From NCBI RefSeq assembly GCF_050920415.1, contig NZ_CP169309.1: DNA of 64,000 nt; one strand, written 5' to 3'. The notes below the pieces were generated by a model. The model was given only the letters and a program-made list of their open reading frames with translations, did not search any database and was not told where the DNA came from. This DNA comes from Escherichia coli (lineage in GTDB: Bacteria > Pseudomonadota > Gammaproteobacteria > Enterobacterales > Enterobacteriaceae). The stretch's first letter is position 1. Each line of letters starts with the position of its first letter. A program made the translations under genes and the position numbers. Below, one piece after another: positions 3,085 to 57,310 of the stretch.

Positions 3085-5112
3085 ATGCACTATCGCAATG
3101 TGGTTTGTTTGTTGTCTTTTTTAGTTCCGTCAGCGTGGGGATGCTCGCTCGGTGAACCTGATCATAATATTTACCAGAAACAGGGAAAAGGCGTGGTATA
3201 CCTGCGCCCTAATGAAGAGACAAATCTTTCGTTACCGGAAGTAAATTACCAGCGACTGCGTCGTTTACCTGATTTATTCATTGCTCCTGACACCCAGGAC
3301 GATGGGGAAAAAGAACCGCCGTTAAACGACCTTACCACCGATTATATTGATCAGGGCGCATGGGCCTGGTATCCAAATTATGCTTACTTTAGCGATGGCC
3401 GTTTTGTCATTTATGCGGGCAAGATTGTACAAAATCCATCTGGTTATCCACCGGTCGATGTAGCCTCGTTCCATTCATGGGGCGATTTTGCCGTCGATAA
3501 AAACAGCATTTATTACAAAGGCCAACGGACAGATGAAAATGGCGGCAAGCAACGCGTCGATGAAAAAACGCTGCGCAAAGTAGGATTAGGTAGCCGTTGG
3601 ATGCCTGATCGGCTGGGATTGGTGCTACGTGACGCGCATTTTCTTTATATCGATGGGCACCGTTTTGATAACCCAGAGAGTTTTTCCGTGATCGCGCAAA
3701 AATCCTGGGGTCAACAAGGGAAATTCGCTTCAACGTTTTTTCCCTGCATTGCCTACCCCTTTGGCCCGTGGGATATGCTTACCCGCACACGAACAAAGTT
3801 GCTGATCAATGGAGAGCAACTGGATGCCGATCCGGACAATTTTTCTGTCGTTCGCTGGATGCCCGGCACCCTGTTTAGCTGGCGTGATAAACACGGCGAG
3901 CATCGTAAAGTCATTGATCAGGTTCGTTTGGCAAGGAATGAAGATATATCCCGGCAATGTGACAACTTTACGCTGTTAGAAAAAAAGGTGTTCTGGCGCA
4001 AGGGGCCAGATTGTGAGCAGGAAGAATTACCCAGTCTCGACCCGGAGCAGTTTCACCCGATCAGTGACATCGTGGCGCAGTATCAGGACAAGTTGTATGC
4101 AATCAGTAAGACCCCCTTCGGTGAAAATCAGTTGGAGATCATCACCCTGGATAACCCGAATCTGATCATCAATAAACGTTTTAATGCAGGAAGGCATCAT
4201 GGCTATTTACTCACCCGATCAACAAATTGGGACGGACATGAGAAAGACGGTTTACAGGTGTTTGAATCCGTTGGCCCACTGATACTGCTGGACTACCGTG
4301 TGCCGAATGAAGCAGATGCACACCGTGGCAATAACCCGCATTACAAAAAATGGTTTGCTCGCGACGATCGTTACGTTTATGCATTCGATGGTGCGCAGCT
4401 TTGGCGTTACCCTACGCAATATCCCAAAGCGGCACGTATCAAAGCCGCTAAAGACGACTGGCTGAACGTCAGCCTTAGCCAGTTGGACGGTGAGATAATG
4501 AAAGATGGCTCATTTACTCCCACTGGCATCAAGCACACATCCTCTTTAAAACCCGCCAAGGCATACGAAGATGGGGACAATGAATCTTCATTTATCGTAA
4601 ATAAATCGGGAGTAGGCTGGCGAAAAGCGCTTTCACCCGACCTGCAATGGAGTGAGTGGCATTACCTGGAAGGCATTGATCCAAAAAAGTTTCATCTGAT
4701 TACCGAACGTATTGCACAGTACAAAAACCAACTCTACGTCGTCAGGCGCTCGCATTTTGGAGAAGATCGGCTCGAAATCATAGAGTTGGAGTCATCTTTG
4801 CCCATCAAAAATAAACCGATAAATACGGGCAAGGAGCGTCATTACTTTCTGCAAAGTACCCGACAAAAACAGGATGTGCAGGTATTCACCAGCAGCGGTG
4901 CGCTGATAGCAACGGAGCGCTTTGCTTATGACGATAGCTATGTCTACACCTGGATTGACGATCAGCTTTATCGCACACCCTCCCCCTGCCCAGCGAAAAC
5001 ATACGTCAGAGAAAAGAATGTCCGTGAAATTCATAACAGCGACATTATTATTCCGGTGACGGAGGAATCGTGCCGGAACGCAGCAGCAGACGGGCAAACT
5101 TTGAAGCCCTGA
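3085..5112 (+). CDS. Hypothetical secreted/lipoprotein-like repeat protein (675 aa from ATG 3085; 685 aa if the in-frame GTG at 3055 is used); strain-variable gene absent from K-12 at this locus
   Basis: Uninterrupted ~2 kb ORF; AGGA Shine-Dalgarno 8 nt before ATG 3085; N-terminus MHYRNVVCLLSFLVPSAWG|C looks like a signal peptide with possible lipobox Cys; internal ~110-aa tandem duplication and recurring D-x-x-SF...W-G / DKNSIYY / DDRYVY / DDSYVY motifs; host-like codon usage by eye. Confidence 0.75.
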   Translation: MHYRNVVCLLSFLVPSAWGCSLGEPDHNIYQKQGKGVVYLRPNEETNLSLPEVNYQRLRRLPDLFIAPDTQDDGEKEPPLNDLTTDYIDQGAWAWYPNYAYFSDGRFVIYAGKIVQNPSGYPPVDVASFHSWGDFAVDKNSIYYKGQRTDENGGKQRVDEKTLRKVGLGSRWMPDRLGLVLRDAHFLYIDGHRFDNPESFSVIAQKSWGQQGKFASTFFPCIAYPFGPWDMLTRTRTKLLINGEQLDADPDNFSVVRWMPGTLFSWRDKHGEHRKVIDQVRLARNEDISRQCDNFTLLEKKVFWRKGPDCEQEELPSLDPEQFHPISDIVAQYQDKLYAISKTPFGENQLEIITLDNPNLIINKRFNAGRHHGYLLTRSTNWDGHEKDGLQVFESVGPLILLDYRVPNEADAHRGNNPHYKKWFARDDRYVYAFDGAQLWRYPTQYPKAARIKAAKDDWLNVSLSQLDGEIMKDGSFTPTGIKHTSSLKPAKAYEDGDNESSFIVNKSGVGWRKALSPDLQWSEWHYLEGIDPKKFHLITERIAQYKNQLYVVRRSHFGEDRLEIIELESSLPIKNKPINTGKERHYFLQSTRQKQDVQVFTSSGALIATERFAYDDSYVYTWIDDQLYRTPSPCPAKTYVREKNVREIHNSDIIIPVTEESCRNAAADGQTLKP

Positions 5113-8452: not shown

Positions 8453-9394
8453 ATGTTAGACAATGTTTTAAGAATTGCCACACGCCAAAGCCCACTTGCA
8501 CTCTGGCAGGCACACTATGTCAAAGACAAGTTGATGGCGAGCCATCCGGGCCTGGTCGTTGAACTGGTACCGATGGTGACGCGCGGCGATGTGATTCTTG
8601 ATACGCCGCTGGCGAAAGTAGGCGGAAAAGGCTTATTTGTAAAAGAGCTGGAAGTCGCGCTCCTGGAGAATCGCGCCGATATCGCCGTACATTCAATGAA
8701 AGATGTGCCGGTTGAATTCCCGCAAGGTCTGGGGCTGGTCACTATTTGCGAGCGTGAAGATCCTCGCGATGCATTTGTGTCCAATAACTATGACAGTCTG
8801 GATGCGTTACCGGCAGGCAGTATCGTCGGGACGTCCAGTTTACGTCGCCAGTGCCAACTGGCTGAACGCCGCCCGGATCTGATTATCCGCTCCCTGCGCG
8901 GCAACGTCGGCACTCGCCTGAGCAAACTGGATAACGGCGAATACGATGCCATCATTCTTGCCGTAGCCGGACTAAAACGTTTAGGTCTGGAGTCACGCAT
9001 TCGCGCCGCGTTGCCACCCGAGATTTCTCTTCCGGCGGTAGGACAAGGTGCGGTCGGTATTGAATGCCGCCTTAATGATACTCGCACTCGCGAGCTGCTT
9101 GCCGCGCTGAATCACCACGAAACTGCACTGCGTGTTACCGCCGAACGCGCCATGAATACCCGTCTCGAAGGCGGATGTCAGGTGCCAATTGGTAGCTACG
9201 CCGAGCTTATTGATGGCGAAATCTGGCTGCGTGCGCTGGTCGGCGCGCCGGACGGTTCGCAGATTATTCGCGGTGAACGCCGCGGTGCGCCGCAAGATGC
9301 CGAACAAATGGGGATTTCGCTGGCAGAAGAGCTACTGAATAACGGCGCGCGCGAGATCCTTGCTGAAGTCTATAACGGAGACGCCCCGGCATGA
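8453..9394 (+). CDS. hemC: Porphobilinogen deaminase HemC
   Basis: ORF contains [23 protein letters not shown]...; start set to give 313 aa; divergent from cyaA with a 386-bp intergenic region. Confidence 0.95.
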
Positions 9395-10131
9395 GTATCC
9401 TGGTCACCCGCCCGTCTCCCGCAGGAGAAGAGTTAGTGAGCCGTCTGCGCACACTGGGGCAGGTGGCCTGGCATTTTCCGCTGATTGAGTTTTCTCCGGG
9501 TCGACAATTACCGCAACTTGCTGATCAACTGGCAGCGCTGGGAGAGAGCGATCTGTTGTTTACCCTCTCGCAACACGCGGTTGCTTTTGCCCAATCACAG
9601 CTGCATCAGCAAGATCGTAAATGGCCCCAACTACCTGATTATTTCGCCATTGGACGCACCACCGCGCTGGCACTACATACCGTAAGCGGACAGAAGATTC
9701 TCTACCCGCAGGATCGGGAAATCAGCGAAGTCTTGCTACAATTACCTGAATTACAAAATATTGCGGGCAAACGTGCGCTGATATTACGTGGCAATGGCGG
9801 TCGTGAGCTAATTGGGGATACCCTGACGGCGCGCGGCGCTGAAGTCACTTTTTGTGAATGTTATCAACGATGCGCAATCCATTACGATGGTGCAGAAGAA
9901 GCGATGCGCTGGCAATCCCGCGAGGTGACGACAGTCGTTGTTACCAGCGGTGAAATGTTACAGCAACTCTGGTCGCTGATCCCACAATGGTATCGTGAGC
10001 ACTGGTTACTACGCTGTCGACTTTTAGTCGTCAGTGAGCGTCTGGCGAAACTCGCCCGGGAACTGGGCTGGCAAGACATTAAGGTCGCCGATAACGCTGA
10101 CAACGATGCGCTTTTACGGGCATTACAATAA
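9391..10131 (+). CDS. hemD: Uroporphyrinogen-III synthase HemD
   Basis: 246-aa ORF overlapping hemC stop by 4 nt (ATGA). Confidence 0.93.
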
Positions 10132-10152: not shown

Positions 10153-11361
10153 ATGACGGAACAAGAAAAAACCTCCGCCGTGGTTGAAGAGACCAGGGAG
10201 GCCGTGGACACCACGTCACAACCTGTCGCAACAGAAAAAAAGAGCAAGAACAACACCGCATTGATTCTCAGCGCGGTGGCTATCGCTATTGCTCTGGCGG
10301 CGGGCGTCGGTTTGTATGGCTGGGGTAAACAACAGGCCGTCAATCAGACTGCCACCAGCGATGCCCTGGCTAACCAACTTACGGCACTGCAAAAAGCCCA
10401 GGAGAGCCAAAAAGCCGAGCTGGAAGGCATTATCAAGCAACAAGCTACGCAGCTTGAACAGGCGAATCGTCAGCAAGAAACGCTGGCAAAACAGCTGGAT
10501 GAAGTCCAACAAAAGGTCGCGACTATTTCCGGCAGCGATGCTAAAACCTGGCTGCTGGCTCAGGCTGATTTCCTGGTGAAACTCGCCGGACGGAAGCTGT
10601 GGAGCGATCAGGACGTCACGACCGCTGCAGCGTTGCTGAAAAGTGCAGATGCCAGCCTGGCGGATATGAATGACCCGAGTCTGATTACCGTTCGTCGGGC
10701 AATTACCGATGATATCGCCAGCCTTTCTGCGGTATCGCAGGTGGATTATGACGGCATCATCCTTAAGCTGAATCAGCTTTCTAATCAGGTAGATAACCTG
10801 CGTCTGGCCGATAATGACAGCGATGGTTCACCAATGGATTCCGACGGTGAAGAGCTTTCCAGTTCCCTCAGCGAATGGCGTATCAATCTACAAAAAAGCT
10901 GGCAGAACTTTATGGACAACTTCATTACGATTCGCCGTCGTGATGACACCGCCGTACCACTGTTAGCACCGAATCAGGATATCTATCTGCGCGAAAATAT
11001 TCGCTCCCGCCTGCTGGTCGCGGCACAAGCCGTACCGCGTCATCAGGAAGAGACTTATCGCCAGGCGCTGGAGAATGTCTCCACCTGGGTACGTGCTTAC
11101 TACGATACTGATGATGCCACCACCAAAGCGTTCCTCGACGAGGTGGACCAGTTAAGCCAGCAAAATATCTCGATGGATCTCCCGGAAACTCTGCAAAGCC
11201 AGGCGATGCTGGAAAAACTGATGCAGACGCGCGTGCGCAATCTGCTGGCGCAACCAGCAGCAGAGGCTAAACCTGCACCTGCACCTGCACCTGCACCTGC
11301 ACCTGCACCTGCACCTGCACCGCAAGCTGATACTCCGGCAGCCGCGCCGCAAGGAGAATAA
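10153..11361 (+). CDS. hemX: HemX (putative uroporphyrinogen-III C-methyltransferase-like inner-membrane protein) with C-terminal Pro-Ala repeat
   Basis: 402-aa [27 protein letters not shown]..., one TM segment, coiled-coil region, C-terminal [31 protein letters not shown]. Confidence 0.9.
11275..11316 (+). repeat. Perfect tandem hexanucleotide repeat (GCACCT)x7 inside hemX, encoding (Ala-Pro)n
   Basis: Seven perfect gcacct units counted directly, flanked by imperfect units (aaacct upstream, gcaccg downstream). Confidence 0.95.
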
Positions 11362-11363
11362 CC

Positions 11364-12560
11364 ATGCTAAAAGTGTTATTGCTCTTTGTGTTGCTGATTG
11401 CGGGGATCGTGGTCGGCCCGATGATTGCCGGTCATCAGGGTTACGTGCTGATCCAGACCGATACCTACAATATCGAAACCAGCGTCACGGGCCTGGCGAT
11501 CATTTTGATTCTGGCGATGGTAGTGCTGTTTGCCATTGAGTGGCTACTGCGGCGGATCTTCCGCACAGGCGCACACACCCGTGGGTGGTTTATCGGACGT
11601 AAGCGTCGCCGTGCCCGTAAGCAGACCGAACAGGCGCTGCTGAAACTAGCGGAAGGCGATTATCAGCAAGTTGAAAAGCTGATGGCGAAAAATGCCGATC
11701 ACGCTGAACAACCGGTGGTGAACTATCTGCTGGCTGCCGAAGCCGCGCAACAACGCGGTGATGAAGCACGCGCCAACCAACATCTGGAACGCGCAGCGGA
11801 GCTGGCCGGCAACGACACAATTCCGGTAGAAATCACCCGTGTACGTCTGCAACTGGCCCGTAATGAAAACCATGCAGCACGTCACGGCGTTGATAAGCTG
11901 CTGGAAGTTACGCCACGCCATCCGGAAGTATTACGTCTGGCGGAACAGGCGTATATCCGCACTGGTGCATGGAGTTCGCTGCTGGATATCATCCCATCAA
12001 TGGCAAAAGCCCACGTTGGCGATGAAGAGCATCGTGCAATGCTGGAACAACAGGCATGGATTGGCCTGATGGATCAGGCGCGTGCCGATAACGGTAGCGA
12101 AGGTTTGCGTAACTGGTGGAAAAACCAAAGCCGGAAAACGCGTCATCAGGTGGCGTTACAGGTGGCAATGGCGGAACATCTTATTGAATGTGACGATCAT
12201 GATACTGCCCAGCAAATTATCATCGACGGCCTGAAACGCCAGTATGACGATCGCCTGCTGCTGCCGATCCCGCGTCTGAAAACCAATAACCCGGAACAGC
12301 TGGAAAAAGTGCTGCGCCAACAGATCAAAAACGTGGGCGATCGCCCGTTGTTGTGGAGCACACTGGGTCAGTCGCTGATGAAGCACGGAGAATGGCAGGA
12401 AGCATCGCTCGCCTTCCGCGCAGCGCTGAAACAACGTCCGGACGCCTACGATTACGCATGGCTTGCCGACGCGCTGGACAGACTGCACAAGCCGGAAGAA
12501 GCCGCAGCGATGCGTCGCGATGGCTTGATGTTAACGTTGCAGAACAACCCGCCACAGTAG
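11364..12560 (+). CDS. hemY: HemY (TPR-like protein of the hemCDXY operon)
   Basis: 398-aa ORF with two N-terminal TM helices (MLKVLLLFVLLIAGIVVGPMIAG...), immediately after hemX. Confidence 0.92.
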   Translation: MLKVLLLFVLLIAGIVVGPMIAGHQGYVLIQTDTYNIETSVTGLAIILILAMVVLFAIEWLLRRIFRTGAHTRGWFIGRKRRRARKQTEQALLKLAEGDYQQVEKLMAKNADHAEQPVVNYLLAAEAAQQRGDEARANQHLERAAELAGNDTIPVEITRVRLQLARNENHAARHGVDKLLEVTPRHPEVLRLAEQAYIRTGAWSSLLDIIPSMAKAHVGDEEHRAMLEQQAWIGLMDQARADNGSEGLRNWWKNQSRKTRHQVALQVAMAEHLIECDDHDTAQQIIIDGLKRQYDDRLLLPIPRLKTNNPEQLEKVLRQQIKNVGDRPLLWSTLGQSLMKHGEWQEASLAFRAALKQRPDAYDYAWLADALDRLHKPEEAAAMRRDGLMLTLQNNPPQ

Positions 12561-52513: not shown

Positions 52514-55414
<2,901 letters not shown>

Positions 55415-55607
55415 TCACAACCCGAAGATGTTTCTTTCGATTCATCATCGTGTTGCGAAAATTTGAGAGACTCACGAACAACTTGCGTTGTTCAGTGTTT
55501 CAATTTTCAGCTTGATCCAGATTTTTAAAGAGCAAATATCTCAAACATCACCCGAAGATGAGTTTTGAGATATTAAGGCAGGTGACTTTCACTCACAAAC
55601 CAGCAAG

Positions 55608-55683
55608 TGGCGTCCCCTAGGGGATTCGAACCCCTGTTACCGCCGTGAAAGGGCGGTGTCCTGGGCCTCTAGACGAAGGGGAC
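55608..55683 (-). tRNA. gltU: tRNA-Glu (UUC), 16S-23S spacer tRNA
   Basis: Reverse complement gives GUCCCCUUCGUCUAGAGGCCCAGGACACCGCCCUUUCACGGCGGUAACAGGGGUUCGAAUCCCCUAGGGGACGCCA. Confidence 0.95.
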
Positions 55684-55768
55684 GTATCAGTCTGCTTCGC
55701 AAGACGCCTTGCTTTTCACTTTCTATCAGACAATCTGTGTGAGCACTGCAAAGCACAGTTCTTTAAGG

Positions 55769-57310
<1,542 letters not shown>

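What the first reader, a model, noticed from the sequence alone, without database searches (positions are those of the whole stretch)
11269..11322. Hexanucleotide microsatellite (GCACCT)n in the 3' end of hemX encoding a Pro-Ala repeat
Seven perfect plus two imperfect tandem GCACCT units encode [20 protein letters not shown] near the HemX C-terminus. Such in-frame repeats are slippage-prone, so repeat number (and HemX length) probably varies between strains; this allele is 402 aa versus ~393 aa that I recall for K-12. The opposite strand yields a spurious CRCRCR ORF (11152..11352).
Basis: partly seen in the sequence, partly recalled or inferred. Interest (0 to 1): 0.35.

Follow-up and report, generated by a model that had tools for sequence, protein, structure and literature searches.

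The report
Known hemX hexanucleotide VNTR (CVN014)
This is a real, perfect six-base tandem repeat near the end of the E. coli hemX gene whose copy number differs widely between strains, but it is already a routine strain-typing marker (MLVA locus CVN014), so it is ordinary.

Summary
Window 11271-11321 holds 8.5 perfect copies of ACCTGC, in frame in hemX (10153-11361, 402 aa), and encodes K(PA)8PQ.

The predicted length polymorphism is confirmed. In a systematic sample of 58 of 5,425 complete E. coli genomes, the tract runs from 2 units (K-12, 20% of the sample) to 19, in 12 alleles, with Nei diversity 0.88. I also found an allele with 23 units. O157:H7 genomes alone range from 7 to 18 units.

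The nearest genome, MFDS1022581, differs from the 64-kb window by a few point differences and one 12-nt gap, which is two repeat units.

The locus is already known. The published primers for CVN014 of the generic E. coli MLVA scheme (Lindstedt 2007) flank exactly this repeat. The published size formula returns my unit counts, and the literature calls CVN014 the most polymorphic locus of the scheme.

- The 9-aa excess over K-12 is +6 PA units minus a separate 3-codon (GTT) deletion just upstream.
- That deletion is carried by only 3 of 5,426 genomes. It removes the CVN014 reverse-primer site, so this strain should type as a null allele.

The unit is 6 nt, so slippage never shifts the frame. This is a length polymorphism of a low-complexity C-terminal tail, not a phase switch.

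The parts
10153..11361 (+). hemX coding sequence (402 aa), between hemD (9391-10131) and hemY (11364-12560)
   Evidence: ORF list. Pfam HemX PF04375 covers aa 130-363, E=3.4e-108. NCBIfam PRK10920 equivalog, 718 bits. RefSeq annotation of the co-linear genomes.
11271..11321 (+). Perfect hexanucleotide tandem array (ACCTGC)8.5, equivalent to (CCT GCA)8 CCx in frame. It encodes (Pro-Ala)8-Pro, residues 374-390. This is VNTR locus CVN014, allele 8.
   Evidence: TRF: period 6, 8.5 copies, 100% match. 0 of 100 shuffles contain it. Copy number runs from 2 to 23 in other E. coli.
11257..11270 (+). 5' flank carrying the rare 9-nt deletion. K-12 reads GCAGCG-GGGACAACG-GAAGCTAA and the window reads GCAGCA-GAGGCTAA, so HemX reads AQPAAEAK instead of AQPAAGTTEAK. 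This is where the CVN014 reverse primer GCAGCRGGGACAACGGAAGC should anneal.
   Evidence: DNA and protein alignments. The primer has no match in the window at up to 3 mismatches but matches K-12, O157 and STEC1589 exactly. The junction sequence is found in only 3 of 5,426 genomes.
11383..11406 (-). Binding site of the CVN014 forward primer TCCCCGCAATCAGCAAMACAAAGA, in the first codons of hemY
   Evidence: Exact match. Primer sequence from Table 1 of PMC8143711.
11353..11366 (+). hemX/hemY junction: GGAG Shine-Dalgarno for hemY inside the last hemX codons (CAA GGA GAA), hemX stop TAA at 11359-11361, hemY ATG at 11364. All repeat alleles keep this frame and junction.
   Evidence: Read directly from the sequence. 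The terminal QGE is invariant in 39 Enterobacteriaceae HemX sequences. hemX ends 2 nt before hemY in all annotated genomes.
11152..11352 (-). Antisense 66-aa ORF (TTG start) containing (CR)n. It is a by-product of the repeat and is judged spurious.
   Evidence: ORF list. The same antisense frame is open in 6 other strains, with (CR)n tracking the repeat number. It lies wholly inside hemX. No test of expression was possible.

Best explanation
The feature is a coding microsatellite (VNTR) in the 3' end of E. coli hemX. It is the locus used as CVN014 in the generic E. coli MLVA typing scheme.

Mechanism (inferred, not shown): the perfect (ACCTGC)n tract gains and loses whole 6-nt units by replication slippage (slipped-strand mispairing).

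Consequences, read directly from the sequences:
- The unit is two codons (Pro-Ala), so every change is in frame.
- The HemX domain is kept in every allele examined, and so are the conserved C-terminal ...APQGE, the hemX stop and the overlapping hemY ribosome-binding site.
- The only product-level effect is a longer or shorter Pro-Ala stretch in a low-complexity tail that lies after the conserved HemX domain.

The tail length is most likely tolerated, near-neutral variation (inferred). That would explain the broad allele spectrum (2 to 23 units) and why nearly identical strains differ.

This window carries allele 8 on a rare flank haplotype that lacks three codons (GTT) immediately upstream.
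For: Repeat and frame:
- The array is perfect and in frame.

Polymorphism across E. coli:
- 5,425 of 5,426 complete E. coli genomes have the locus. A systematic 60-row sample gives hit spans of 424 to 526 nt in strict 6-nt steps. That corresponds to n = 2(x12), 3, 4(x5), 5(x8), 6(x9), 7(x6), 8(x6), 9(x4), 10(x3), 11(x2), 13 and 19, with diversity 0.876.
- Direct sequence reading in 13 genomes confirms that the span differences are whole ACCTGC units: n = 2, 3, 3, 6, 7, 9, 13, 18, 19, 23.
- O157:H7 genomes range from 7 to 18 units.

Rapid change and assembly reliability:
- MFDS1022581 matches the whole 64-kb window with 4 mismatches, six 1-nt indels (mostly in the rrn operon) and one 12-nt gap at the repeat, giving n=6 against n=8.
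- Two independent assemblies of strain T28R give the same span, which argues against an assembly artefact.

Identity with CVN014:
- The forward primer matches hemY at 11383-11406.
- The reverse primer matches hemX directly 5' of the array in K-12, O157 and STEC1589.
- The published formula (PS-111)/6 gives exactly 2, 7 and 19 for those genomes.
- The literature reports CVN014 as the most polymorphic locus: 9 alleles, range 4-15, Nei 0.83 (PMC3519732), and the largest variation in the Swedish set (PMC5217547).

Position in the protein:
- The Pfam domain ends at residue 363 and the repeat occupies 374-390.
- The tail after [13 protein letters not shown] is a variable P/A/E/T-rich segment in 77 Enterobacteriaceae species, whereas the terminal QGE is invariant.
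- The model shows no secondary structure and pLDDT below 50 for residues 368-402, but the whole model is weak.
Against: - Slippage itself was not observed. It is inferred from the perfect units and the 6-nt steps.
- Neutrality is not tested. The excess of n=2 and the hump at n=5-8 could reflect either mutational dynamics or selection.
- Expansion of the same unit in three Citrobacter species and, more modestly, in Raoultella could mean the Pro-Ala tail has some use.
- The 2-unit difference from MFDS1022581 could in principle be an assembly error in one of the two genomes. No reads were available.
- The population counts rest on hit spans for a sample of 58 genomes, not on all 5,425.
Confidence: 0.93

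Rival explanations
1. Functional length tuning. The Pro-Ala tract would act as a semi-rigid spacer whose length sets how far the conserved HemX C-terminus (…APQGE) reaches from the membrane-anchored helical domain. Slippage would then give E. coli a heritable, reversible way to adjust an envelope interaction, with alleles under diversifying or lineage-specific selection.
For: - The terminal QGE is invariant and a P/A-rich tail is present in all 77 Enterobacteriaceae species read.
- The same GCACCT unit is independently long in three Citrobacter species, at 61-89 nt.
- From general knowledge, Ala-Pro-rich segments are extended spacers in TonB, the OmpA hinge and the E2p lipoyl linkers.
- HemX has reported envelope partners YhcB/ZapG and YciS (PMC8163987).
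Against: - Only 12 residues follow the tract, so there is no downstream domain to position.
- The conserved QGE codons also carry the hemY Shine-Dalgarno sequence, which by itself can explain their conservation.
- Allele number varies within a single clone (O157:H7 7-18 units; window vs MFDS1022581), as expected for drift at a fast locus.
- Most genera have short, impure tails.
- No phenotype data exist.
Confidence: 0.05
2. Phase-variable (contingency) switch. Repeat slippage would turn hemX, or the translationally coupled hemY, on and off.
For: The tract is a perfect short-unit repeat inside a gene, 40 nt upstream of the hemY start, and hemX and hemY are separated by 2 nt.
Against: - The unit is 6 nt, so no unit change can shift the frame.
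- Every allele read (n=2 to 23) keeps hemX open to the same stop and keeps the same hemY junction.
- The only disrupted case, P276M, has an interrupted array together with a frameshifted hemY containing internal stops. That points to a poor assembly.
Confidence: 0.01
3. Artefact. The copy number in this window, or its difference from MFDS1022581, would be an assembly or sequencing error rather than biology.
For: The window and MFDS1022581 also differ by six 1-nt indels in the rRNA operon, so at least one assembly carries some errors.
Against: - A 51-nt tract is spanned by single short reads.
- Variation in 6-nt steps is seen across thousands of independent assemblies and in PCR fragment sizing in the MLVA literature.
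- Two assemblies of strain T28R agree.
Confidence: 0.03

Closest known systems
CVN014, VNTR locus of the generic E. coli MLVA scheme (Lindstedt et al. 2007, J Microbiol Methods 69:197; extended by Lobersli et al. 2012)
   Same: It is the same genomic locus. The published primers bracket this array (forward primer in hemY, reverse primer in hemX just 5' of the repeat). The unit length is 6 bp. The size formula (PS-111)/6 reproduces the unit counts read from genomes (2, 7, 19). The allele range and diversity I measured (2-23; 0.88) agree with published values (4-15; 0.83; 'most polymorphic locus').
   Different: This window's allele sits on a rare flank haplotype (3 of 5,426 genomes) in which 9 nt of the 20-nt reverse-primer site are deleted. 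The standard assay should therefore fail, or give an off-ladder size, for this strain. None of the MLVA papers I read names hemX as the host gene. The link was made here by primer mapping.
Other in-frame coding VNTRs used for typing enterobacteria, e.g. the 6-bp STTR5 in Salmonella Typhimurium (cited from PMC5183578 and general knowledge)
   Same: Short units that are a multiple of three, lying inside an ORF. They change by slippage, have high diversity, are used as epidemiological markers, and have no known phenotype.
   Different: Different gene and organism. The hemX tract encodes a pure Pro-Ala dipeptide repeat at the extreme C-terminal tail.
Ala/Pro-rich extended spacers in E. coli envelope and multienzyme proteins (TonB, OmpA hinge, E2p lipoyl linkers; general knowledge, not tested here)
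   Same: Composition (alternating Pro/Ala) and predicted lack of secondary structure.
   Different: Those segments join two folded domains. Here only 12 residues follow the tract, so a linker role is not evident.
Phase-variable simple-sequence contingency loci (Haemophilus, Neisseria, Campylobacter)
   Same: A perfect short tandem repeat in a gene, with slippage as the mutational engine.
   Different: Contingency loci use units that shift the frame or alter promoter spacing to switch expression. The 6-nt unit here cannot shift the frame, and all alleles stay open.

Membership tests
VNTR / coding microsatellite | Head-to-tail copies of a short unit, far beyond chance | tested here: met
   8.5 perfect copies of ACCTGC. 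0 of 100 shuffles contain a 24-nt stretch of it.
VNTR / coding microsatellite | Copy number differs among strains in whole units | tested here: met
   Hit spans of 424-526 nt in 6-nt steps in 58 sampled genomes. n = 2, 3, 6, 7, 9, 13, 18, 19, 23 read directly from sequence.
VNTR / coding microsatellite | Changes faster than surrounding sequence | tested here: met
   The window and MFDS1022581 differ over 64 kb by 4 substitutions, a few 1-nt indels, and 2 repeat units. O157:H7 ranges from 7 to 18 units. No mutation rate was measured.
MLVA locus CVN014 | Both published primers flank the array | tested here: inconclusive
   The forward primer matches the window exactly at 11383-11406. The reverse primer matches K-12, O157 and STEC1589 at the homologous site but not the window, because of the 9-nt deletion. 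So the locus is the same, but this allele lacks one primer site.
MLVA locus CVN014 | 6-bp unit, and a 111-bp offset reproduces the allele numbers | tested here: met
   In-silico amplicons of 123, 153 and 225 bp give (PS-111)/6 = 2, 7 and 19, equal to the counted units.
HemX family (Pfam PF04375 / NCBIfam PRK10920) | Significant match to the family model above the curated cut-off | tested here: met
   PF04375: 361 bits against a cut-off of 25.9, aa 130-363. PRK10920 equivalog: 718 bits against a cut-off of 313.
HemX family (Pfam PF04375 / NCBIfam PRK10920) | Uroporphyrinogen-III C-methyltransferase activity, as the product name implies | not testable with these tools
   The name is marked 'putative' in Pfam. 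The papers read describe HemX instead as a distant Mic60 homologue and a YhcB/YciS partner. No enzymatic evidence was seen.
Phase-variable contingency locus | Unit changes shift the reading frame or switch expression | tested here: not met
   The unit is 6 nt. hemX stays open with the same stop in all alleles read, n=2-23.
Inter-domain Pro/Ala linker | Connects two folded domains | tested here: not met
   Only 12 residues ([12 protein letters not shown]) follow the tract. The Pfam domain ends at residue 363.

The most novel reading that the evidence does not exclude
The Pro-Ala tract could be a slippage-adjustable molecular spacer. Its length (4 to 46 residues in nature) would tune an envelope interaction of the conserved HemX C-terminus, making CVN014 alleles functionally non-equivalent rather than neutral typing marks. 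Parallel expansions in Citrobacter would then be convergent.
Probability: 0.05. Interest if true: 0.45.

Novelty: already known. Interest (0 to 1): 0.1.

Why it matters
It matters little for biology. The locus is a textbook coding VNTR that has been used since 2007 for E. coli strain typing.

Two practical points come out of the check:
- The host gene and exact anatomy of CVN014 are now explicit: the hemX C-terminal tail, (Pro-Ala)n, always in frame, with the hemY ribosome-binding site preserved.
- A rare flank haplotype, carried by this window and 3 of 5,426 complete genomes, deletes the reverse-primer site. It should give a null or off-ladder CVN014 result in PCR-based MLVA.

For annotation, HemX length differences between strains (393 to 435 aa or so) should be read as repeat polymorphism, not as errors.

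Tried and rejected
- Hairpin or other unusual DNA structure in the tract as a driver: folding either strand as DNA gave energies no better than shuffles (z = -0.37 and -0.06). Rejected.
- Divergent species or cryptic clade as the reason no E. coli genome matched the 451-nt query at 99% or better: rejected. The neighbouring 24.4 kb is 100% identical to E. coli MFDS1022581. The low identity came from the repeat gap plus a rare hemX 3' haplotype.
- Phase variation: rejected on unit length and on the open frames in all alleles.
- Structure prediction of HemX from a 39-sequence alignment gave a weak model (mean pLDDT 52). It is used only as soft support for a disordered tail, and I ran no fold search on it.
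- Literature search for 'hemX' together with tandem repeat / VNTR / MLVA found no paper naming hemX as a VNTR host. The link to CVN014 came from mapping the primers.
- The antisense CRCRCR ORF was considered as a possible gene. It is nested in hemX, has a TTG start, and its content is just the complement of the repeat. Rejected as spurious, though expression was not testable.

Full report
**1. The observation**

The sequence at 11269-11322 reads AAACCT, seven GCACCT, then GCACCG. Tandem Repeats Finder reports one array at 11271-11321: period 6, 8.5 copies, 100% matches, unit ACCTGC. It is by far the strongest tandem array in the 64-kb window. A 24-nt piece of it never appears in 100 dinucleotide-preserving shuffles.

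The array lies in frame in the ORF at 10153-11361 (+), 402 aa, flanked by hemD (9391-10131) and hemY (11364-12560). The ORF is HemX:
- Pfam PF04375, E=3.4e-108, covering residues 130-363.
- NCBIfam PRK10920 equivalog, 718 bits.

The encoded peptide is K373-(PA)8-P390-Q391, followed by [11 protein letters not shown]. The antisense ORF at 11152-11352 with (CR)n also exists.

**2. Is the copy number polymorphic?**

A 451-nt query spanning the repeat hit 5,425 of 5,426 complete E. coli genomes. I took 60 rows at even steps down the ranking. Full-length hits spanned 424, 430, 436, 442, 448, 454, 460, 466, 472, 478, 490 and 526 nt, which is strict 6-nt steps.

Reading the sequences directly confirmed that the differences are whole ACCTGC units:

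| Genome | Units (n) |
|---|---|
| K-12 BW25113 | 2 |
| UID2404240036 | 3 |
| O157:H7 F3113 | 7 |
| 95JB1 | 13 |
| 2009C-4687 | 18 |
| STEC1589 | 19 |
| 2017.20.01CC | 23 |

Converting spans to unit numbers for the 58 interpretable rows gives this distribution:

| n | 2 | 3 | 4 | 5 | 6 | 7 | 8 | 9 | 10 | 11 | 13 | 19 |
|---|---|---|---|---|---|---|---|---|---|---|---|---|
| genomes | 12 | 1 | 5 | 8 | 9 | 6 | 6 | 4 | 3 | 2 | 1 | 1 |

That is 12 alleles with Nei diversity 0.876. Within the O157:H7 clone alone, spans correspond to n = 7 to 18. Two independent assemblies of strain T28R give the same span.

**3. A near-isogenic comparison**

No genome in the collection matched the query at 99% or better, which at first suggested a divergent species. 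It is not one. The adjacent 24.4 kb is 100.0% identical to E. coli MFDS1022581.

Aligning the whole window to that genome gives 4 mismatches, six 1-nt indels and a single 12-nt gap:
- Five of the six 1-nt indels and two of the mismatches lie in the rRNA operon.
- The 12-nt gap falls exactly in the repeat, giving n=6 in MFDS1022581 against n=8 in the window.

Outside the rRNA operon the two sequences differ by two substitutions in about 59 kb, yet by two repeat units. This is direct, though not read-level, evidence that the tract changes much faster than its surroundings.

**4. The 402 vs 393 aa difference**

The alignments show that the window and K-12 differ in two ways:
- The window has six more PA units (+12 aa).
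- The window lacks 9 nt just 5' of the array. K-12 reads ...GCAGCG GGGACAACG GAAGCTAA and the window reads ...GCAGCA GAGGCTAA, so AQPAAGTTEAK becomes AQPAAEAK (-3 aa).

The net difference is +9 aa. A 44-nt query across this junction finds the deleted flank in only three of 5,426 genomes. Those three are MFDS1022581 (n=6), 2020CK-00188 (n=9) and N96 (n=3). Together with the window (n=8), all four carriers of the rare flank have different unit numbers.

**5. It is a known marker**

Table 1 of PMC8143711 lists the primers of the generic E. coli MLVA of Lindstedt et al. 2007 (reference confirmed).
- The CVN014 forward primer, TCCCCGCAATCAGCAAMACAAAGA, matches the window exactly at 11383-11406 (-), in the first codons of hemY.
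- The CVN014 reverse primer, GCAGCRGGGACAACGGAAGC, matches K-12, O157:H7 and STEC1589 immediately 5' of the array.
- In-silico amplicons of 123, 153 and 225 bp, put into the published formula (PS-111)/6, return 2, 7 and 19. These are exactly the counted units.

The MLVA literature describes CVN014 as the most polymorphic locus of the scheme. PMC3519732 reports 9 alleles, a range of 4-15 and Nei 0.83. PMC5217547 reports the largest variation at this locus. Both agree with my genome-based figures.

The reverse primer has no match in the window even with 3 mismatches, because the 9-nt deletion removes half of its site. This strain is predicted to give a null or off-ladder CVN014 result.

**6. How it most likely works**

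Shown directly:
- The array is perfect in every clean allele read.
- Changes are in whole 6-nt units.
- hemX stays open to the same stop in all alleles.
- The hemX stop (11359-11361) lies 2 nt before the hemY ATG (11364), and the hemY GGAG sits inside the last hemX codons.

Inferred:
- Units are gained and lost by slipped-strand mispairing during replication.
- A 6-nt unit is two codons, so the locus cannot act as a frameshift switch. It only lengthens or shortens a Pro-Ala stretch.

The tract lies after the end of the conserved domain (residue 363). Across 77 species representatives of Enterobacteriaceae, the segment after [13 protein letters not shown] is a variable P/A/E/T/S-rich tail of roughly 20-45 residues. 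The final QGE, by contrast, is invariant.

Long perfect GCACCT/ACCTGC runs occur in only a few lineages:
- Escherichia: E. coli lineages, E. albertii (n=6) and Escherichia sp. E1V33 (n=7).
- Three Citrobacter species, with runs of 61-89 nt.
- Raoultella ornithinolytica, more modestly, at 24 nt.

Other genera have short, impure PAPAP motifs.

An AlphaFold2 model from a 39-sequence alignment is weak overall (mean pLDDT 52). It shows no secondary structure and pLDDT below 50 for residues 368-402, which is consistent with a disordered tail but is not strong evidence for one. DNA folding of the tract is no better than shuffled controls, so no special secondary structure is needed to explain the instability.

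The + strand has negative GC skew across the whole window and the rRNA operon is on the - strand. hemX therefore lies on the lagging strand, head-on to replication. This is context only, and I draw no conclusion from it.

**7. Rival explanations**

- A functional spacer whose length tunes a HemX interaction cannot be excluded. The conserved terminus, the parallel Citrobacter expansions and the reported HemX partners YhcB and YciS all speak for it. Against it, there is no downstream domain, the terminal codons are also constrained by the hemY ribosome-binding site, and variation within clones looks like drift.
- A phase-variation switch is contradicted by the unit length.
- An assembly artefact is unlikely, given PCR-based MLVA data and thousands of concordant assemblies.

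**8. Verdict**

The finding is ordinary. It is the established VNTR CVN014, here as allele 8 on a rare primer-site-deleted haplotype. The function of HemX itself remains poorly defined. The 'uroporphyrinogen-III C-methyltransferase' name is only putative, and one preprint treats HemX as a distant Mic60 homologue. The repeat adds nothing to that question.

Noticed in passing
window 3085-5112 (+): A 675-aa ORF lies between lptM and cyaY, with no Pfam or PADLOC match. A full-length copy is present in only 5 of 5,426 complete E. coli genomes. Other strains carry different genes at the same spot (DKNYY family, DUF3304, other hypotheticals), so this looks like a hypervariable accessory slot.
   Followed up: partly
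window 38803-39252 (+): An intact 149-aa PemK/MazF-family toxin gene lies between rep and ppiC (Pfam PF02452, E=7.5e-11; annotated as such in MFDS1022581). I did not look for a partner antitoxin.
   Followed up: partly
window 52687-56638 (rRNA operon, - strand): Most of the remaining differences between the window and its nearest genome MFDS1022581 cluster in the 23S and 16S genes (1-nt indels and 2 substitutions). This is probably assembly noise or differences between rrn copies rather than real divergence.
   Followed up: no
window 11248-11270, and loci L002, L009-L013: The short segment just 5' of the repeat is itself indel-prone across Escherichia: PAAGTTEAK (K-12), PAAGATEAK, PAARATEAK, PAAPATEAK (E. 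albertii), PAAAEAK and PAAEAK (window). The CVN014 reverse primer therefore sits on unstable ground.
   Followed up: partly
L025, L026, L028 (Citrobacter spp.) and L081 (Raoultella ornithinolytica), hemX 3' ends: The same GCACCT unit is expanded to 61-89 nt in three Citrobacter species and to 24 nt in R. ornithinolytica, at the homologous position. This could be parallel expansion or an ancestral proto-repeat. These may be usable VNTRs in those genera.
   Followed up: no
L093 (E. coli P276M, NZ_CP044293.1) 1500-1950: This genome has an interrupted repeat array (…ACCTGCTGCACCTGCACCACCTGC…) next to a hemY annotated as frameshifted with internal stops. This most likely reflects a low-accuracy assembly rather than biology.
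   Followed up: partly
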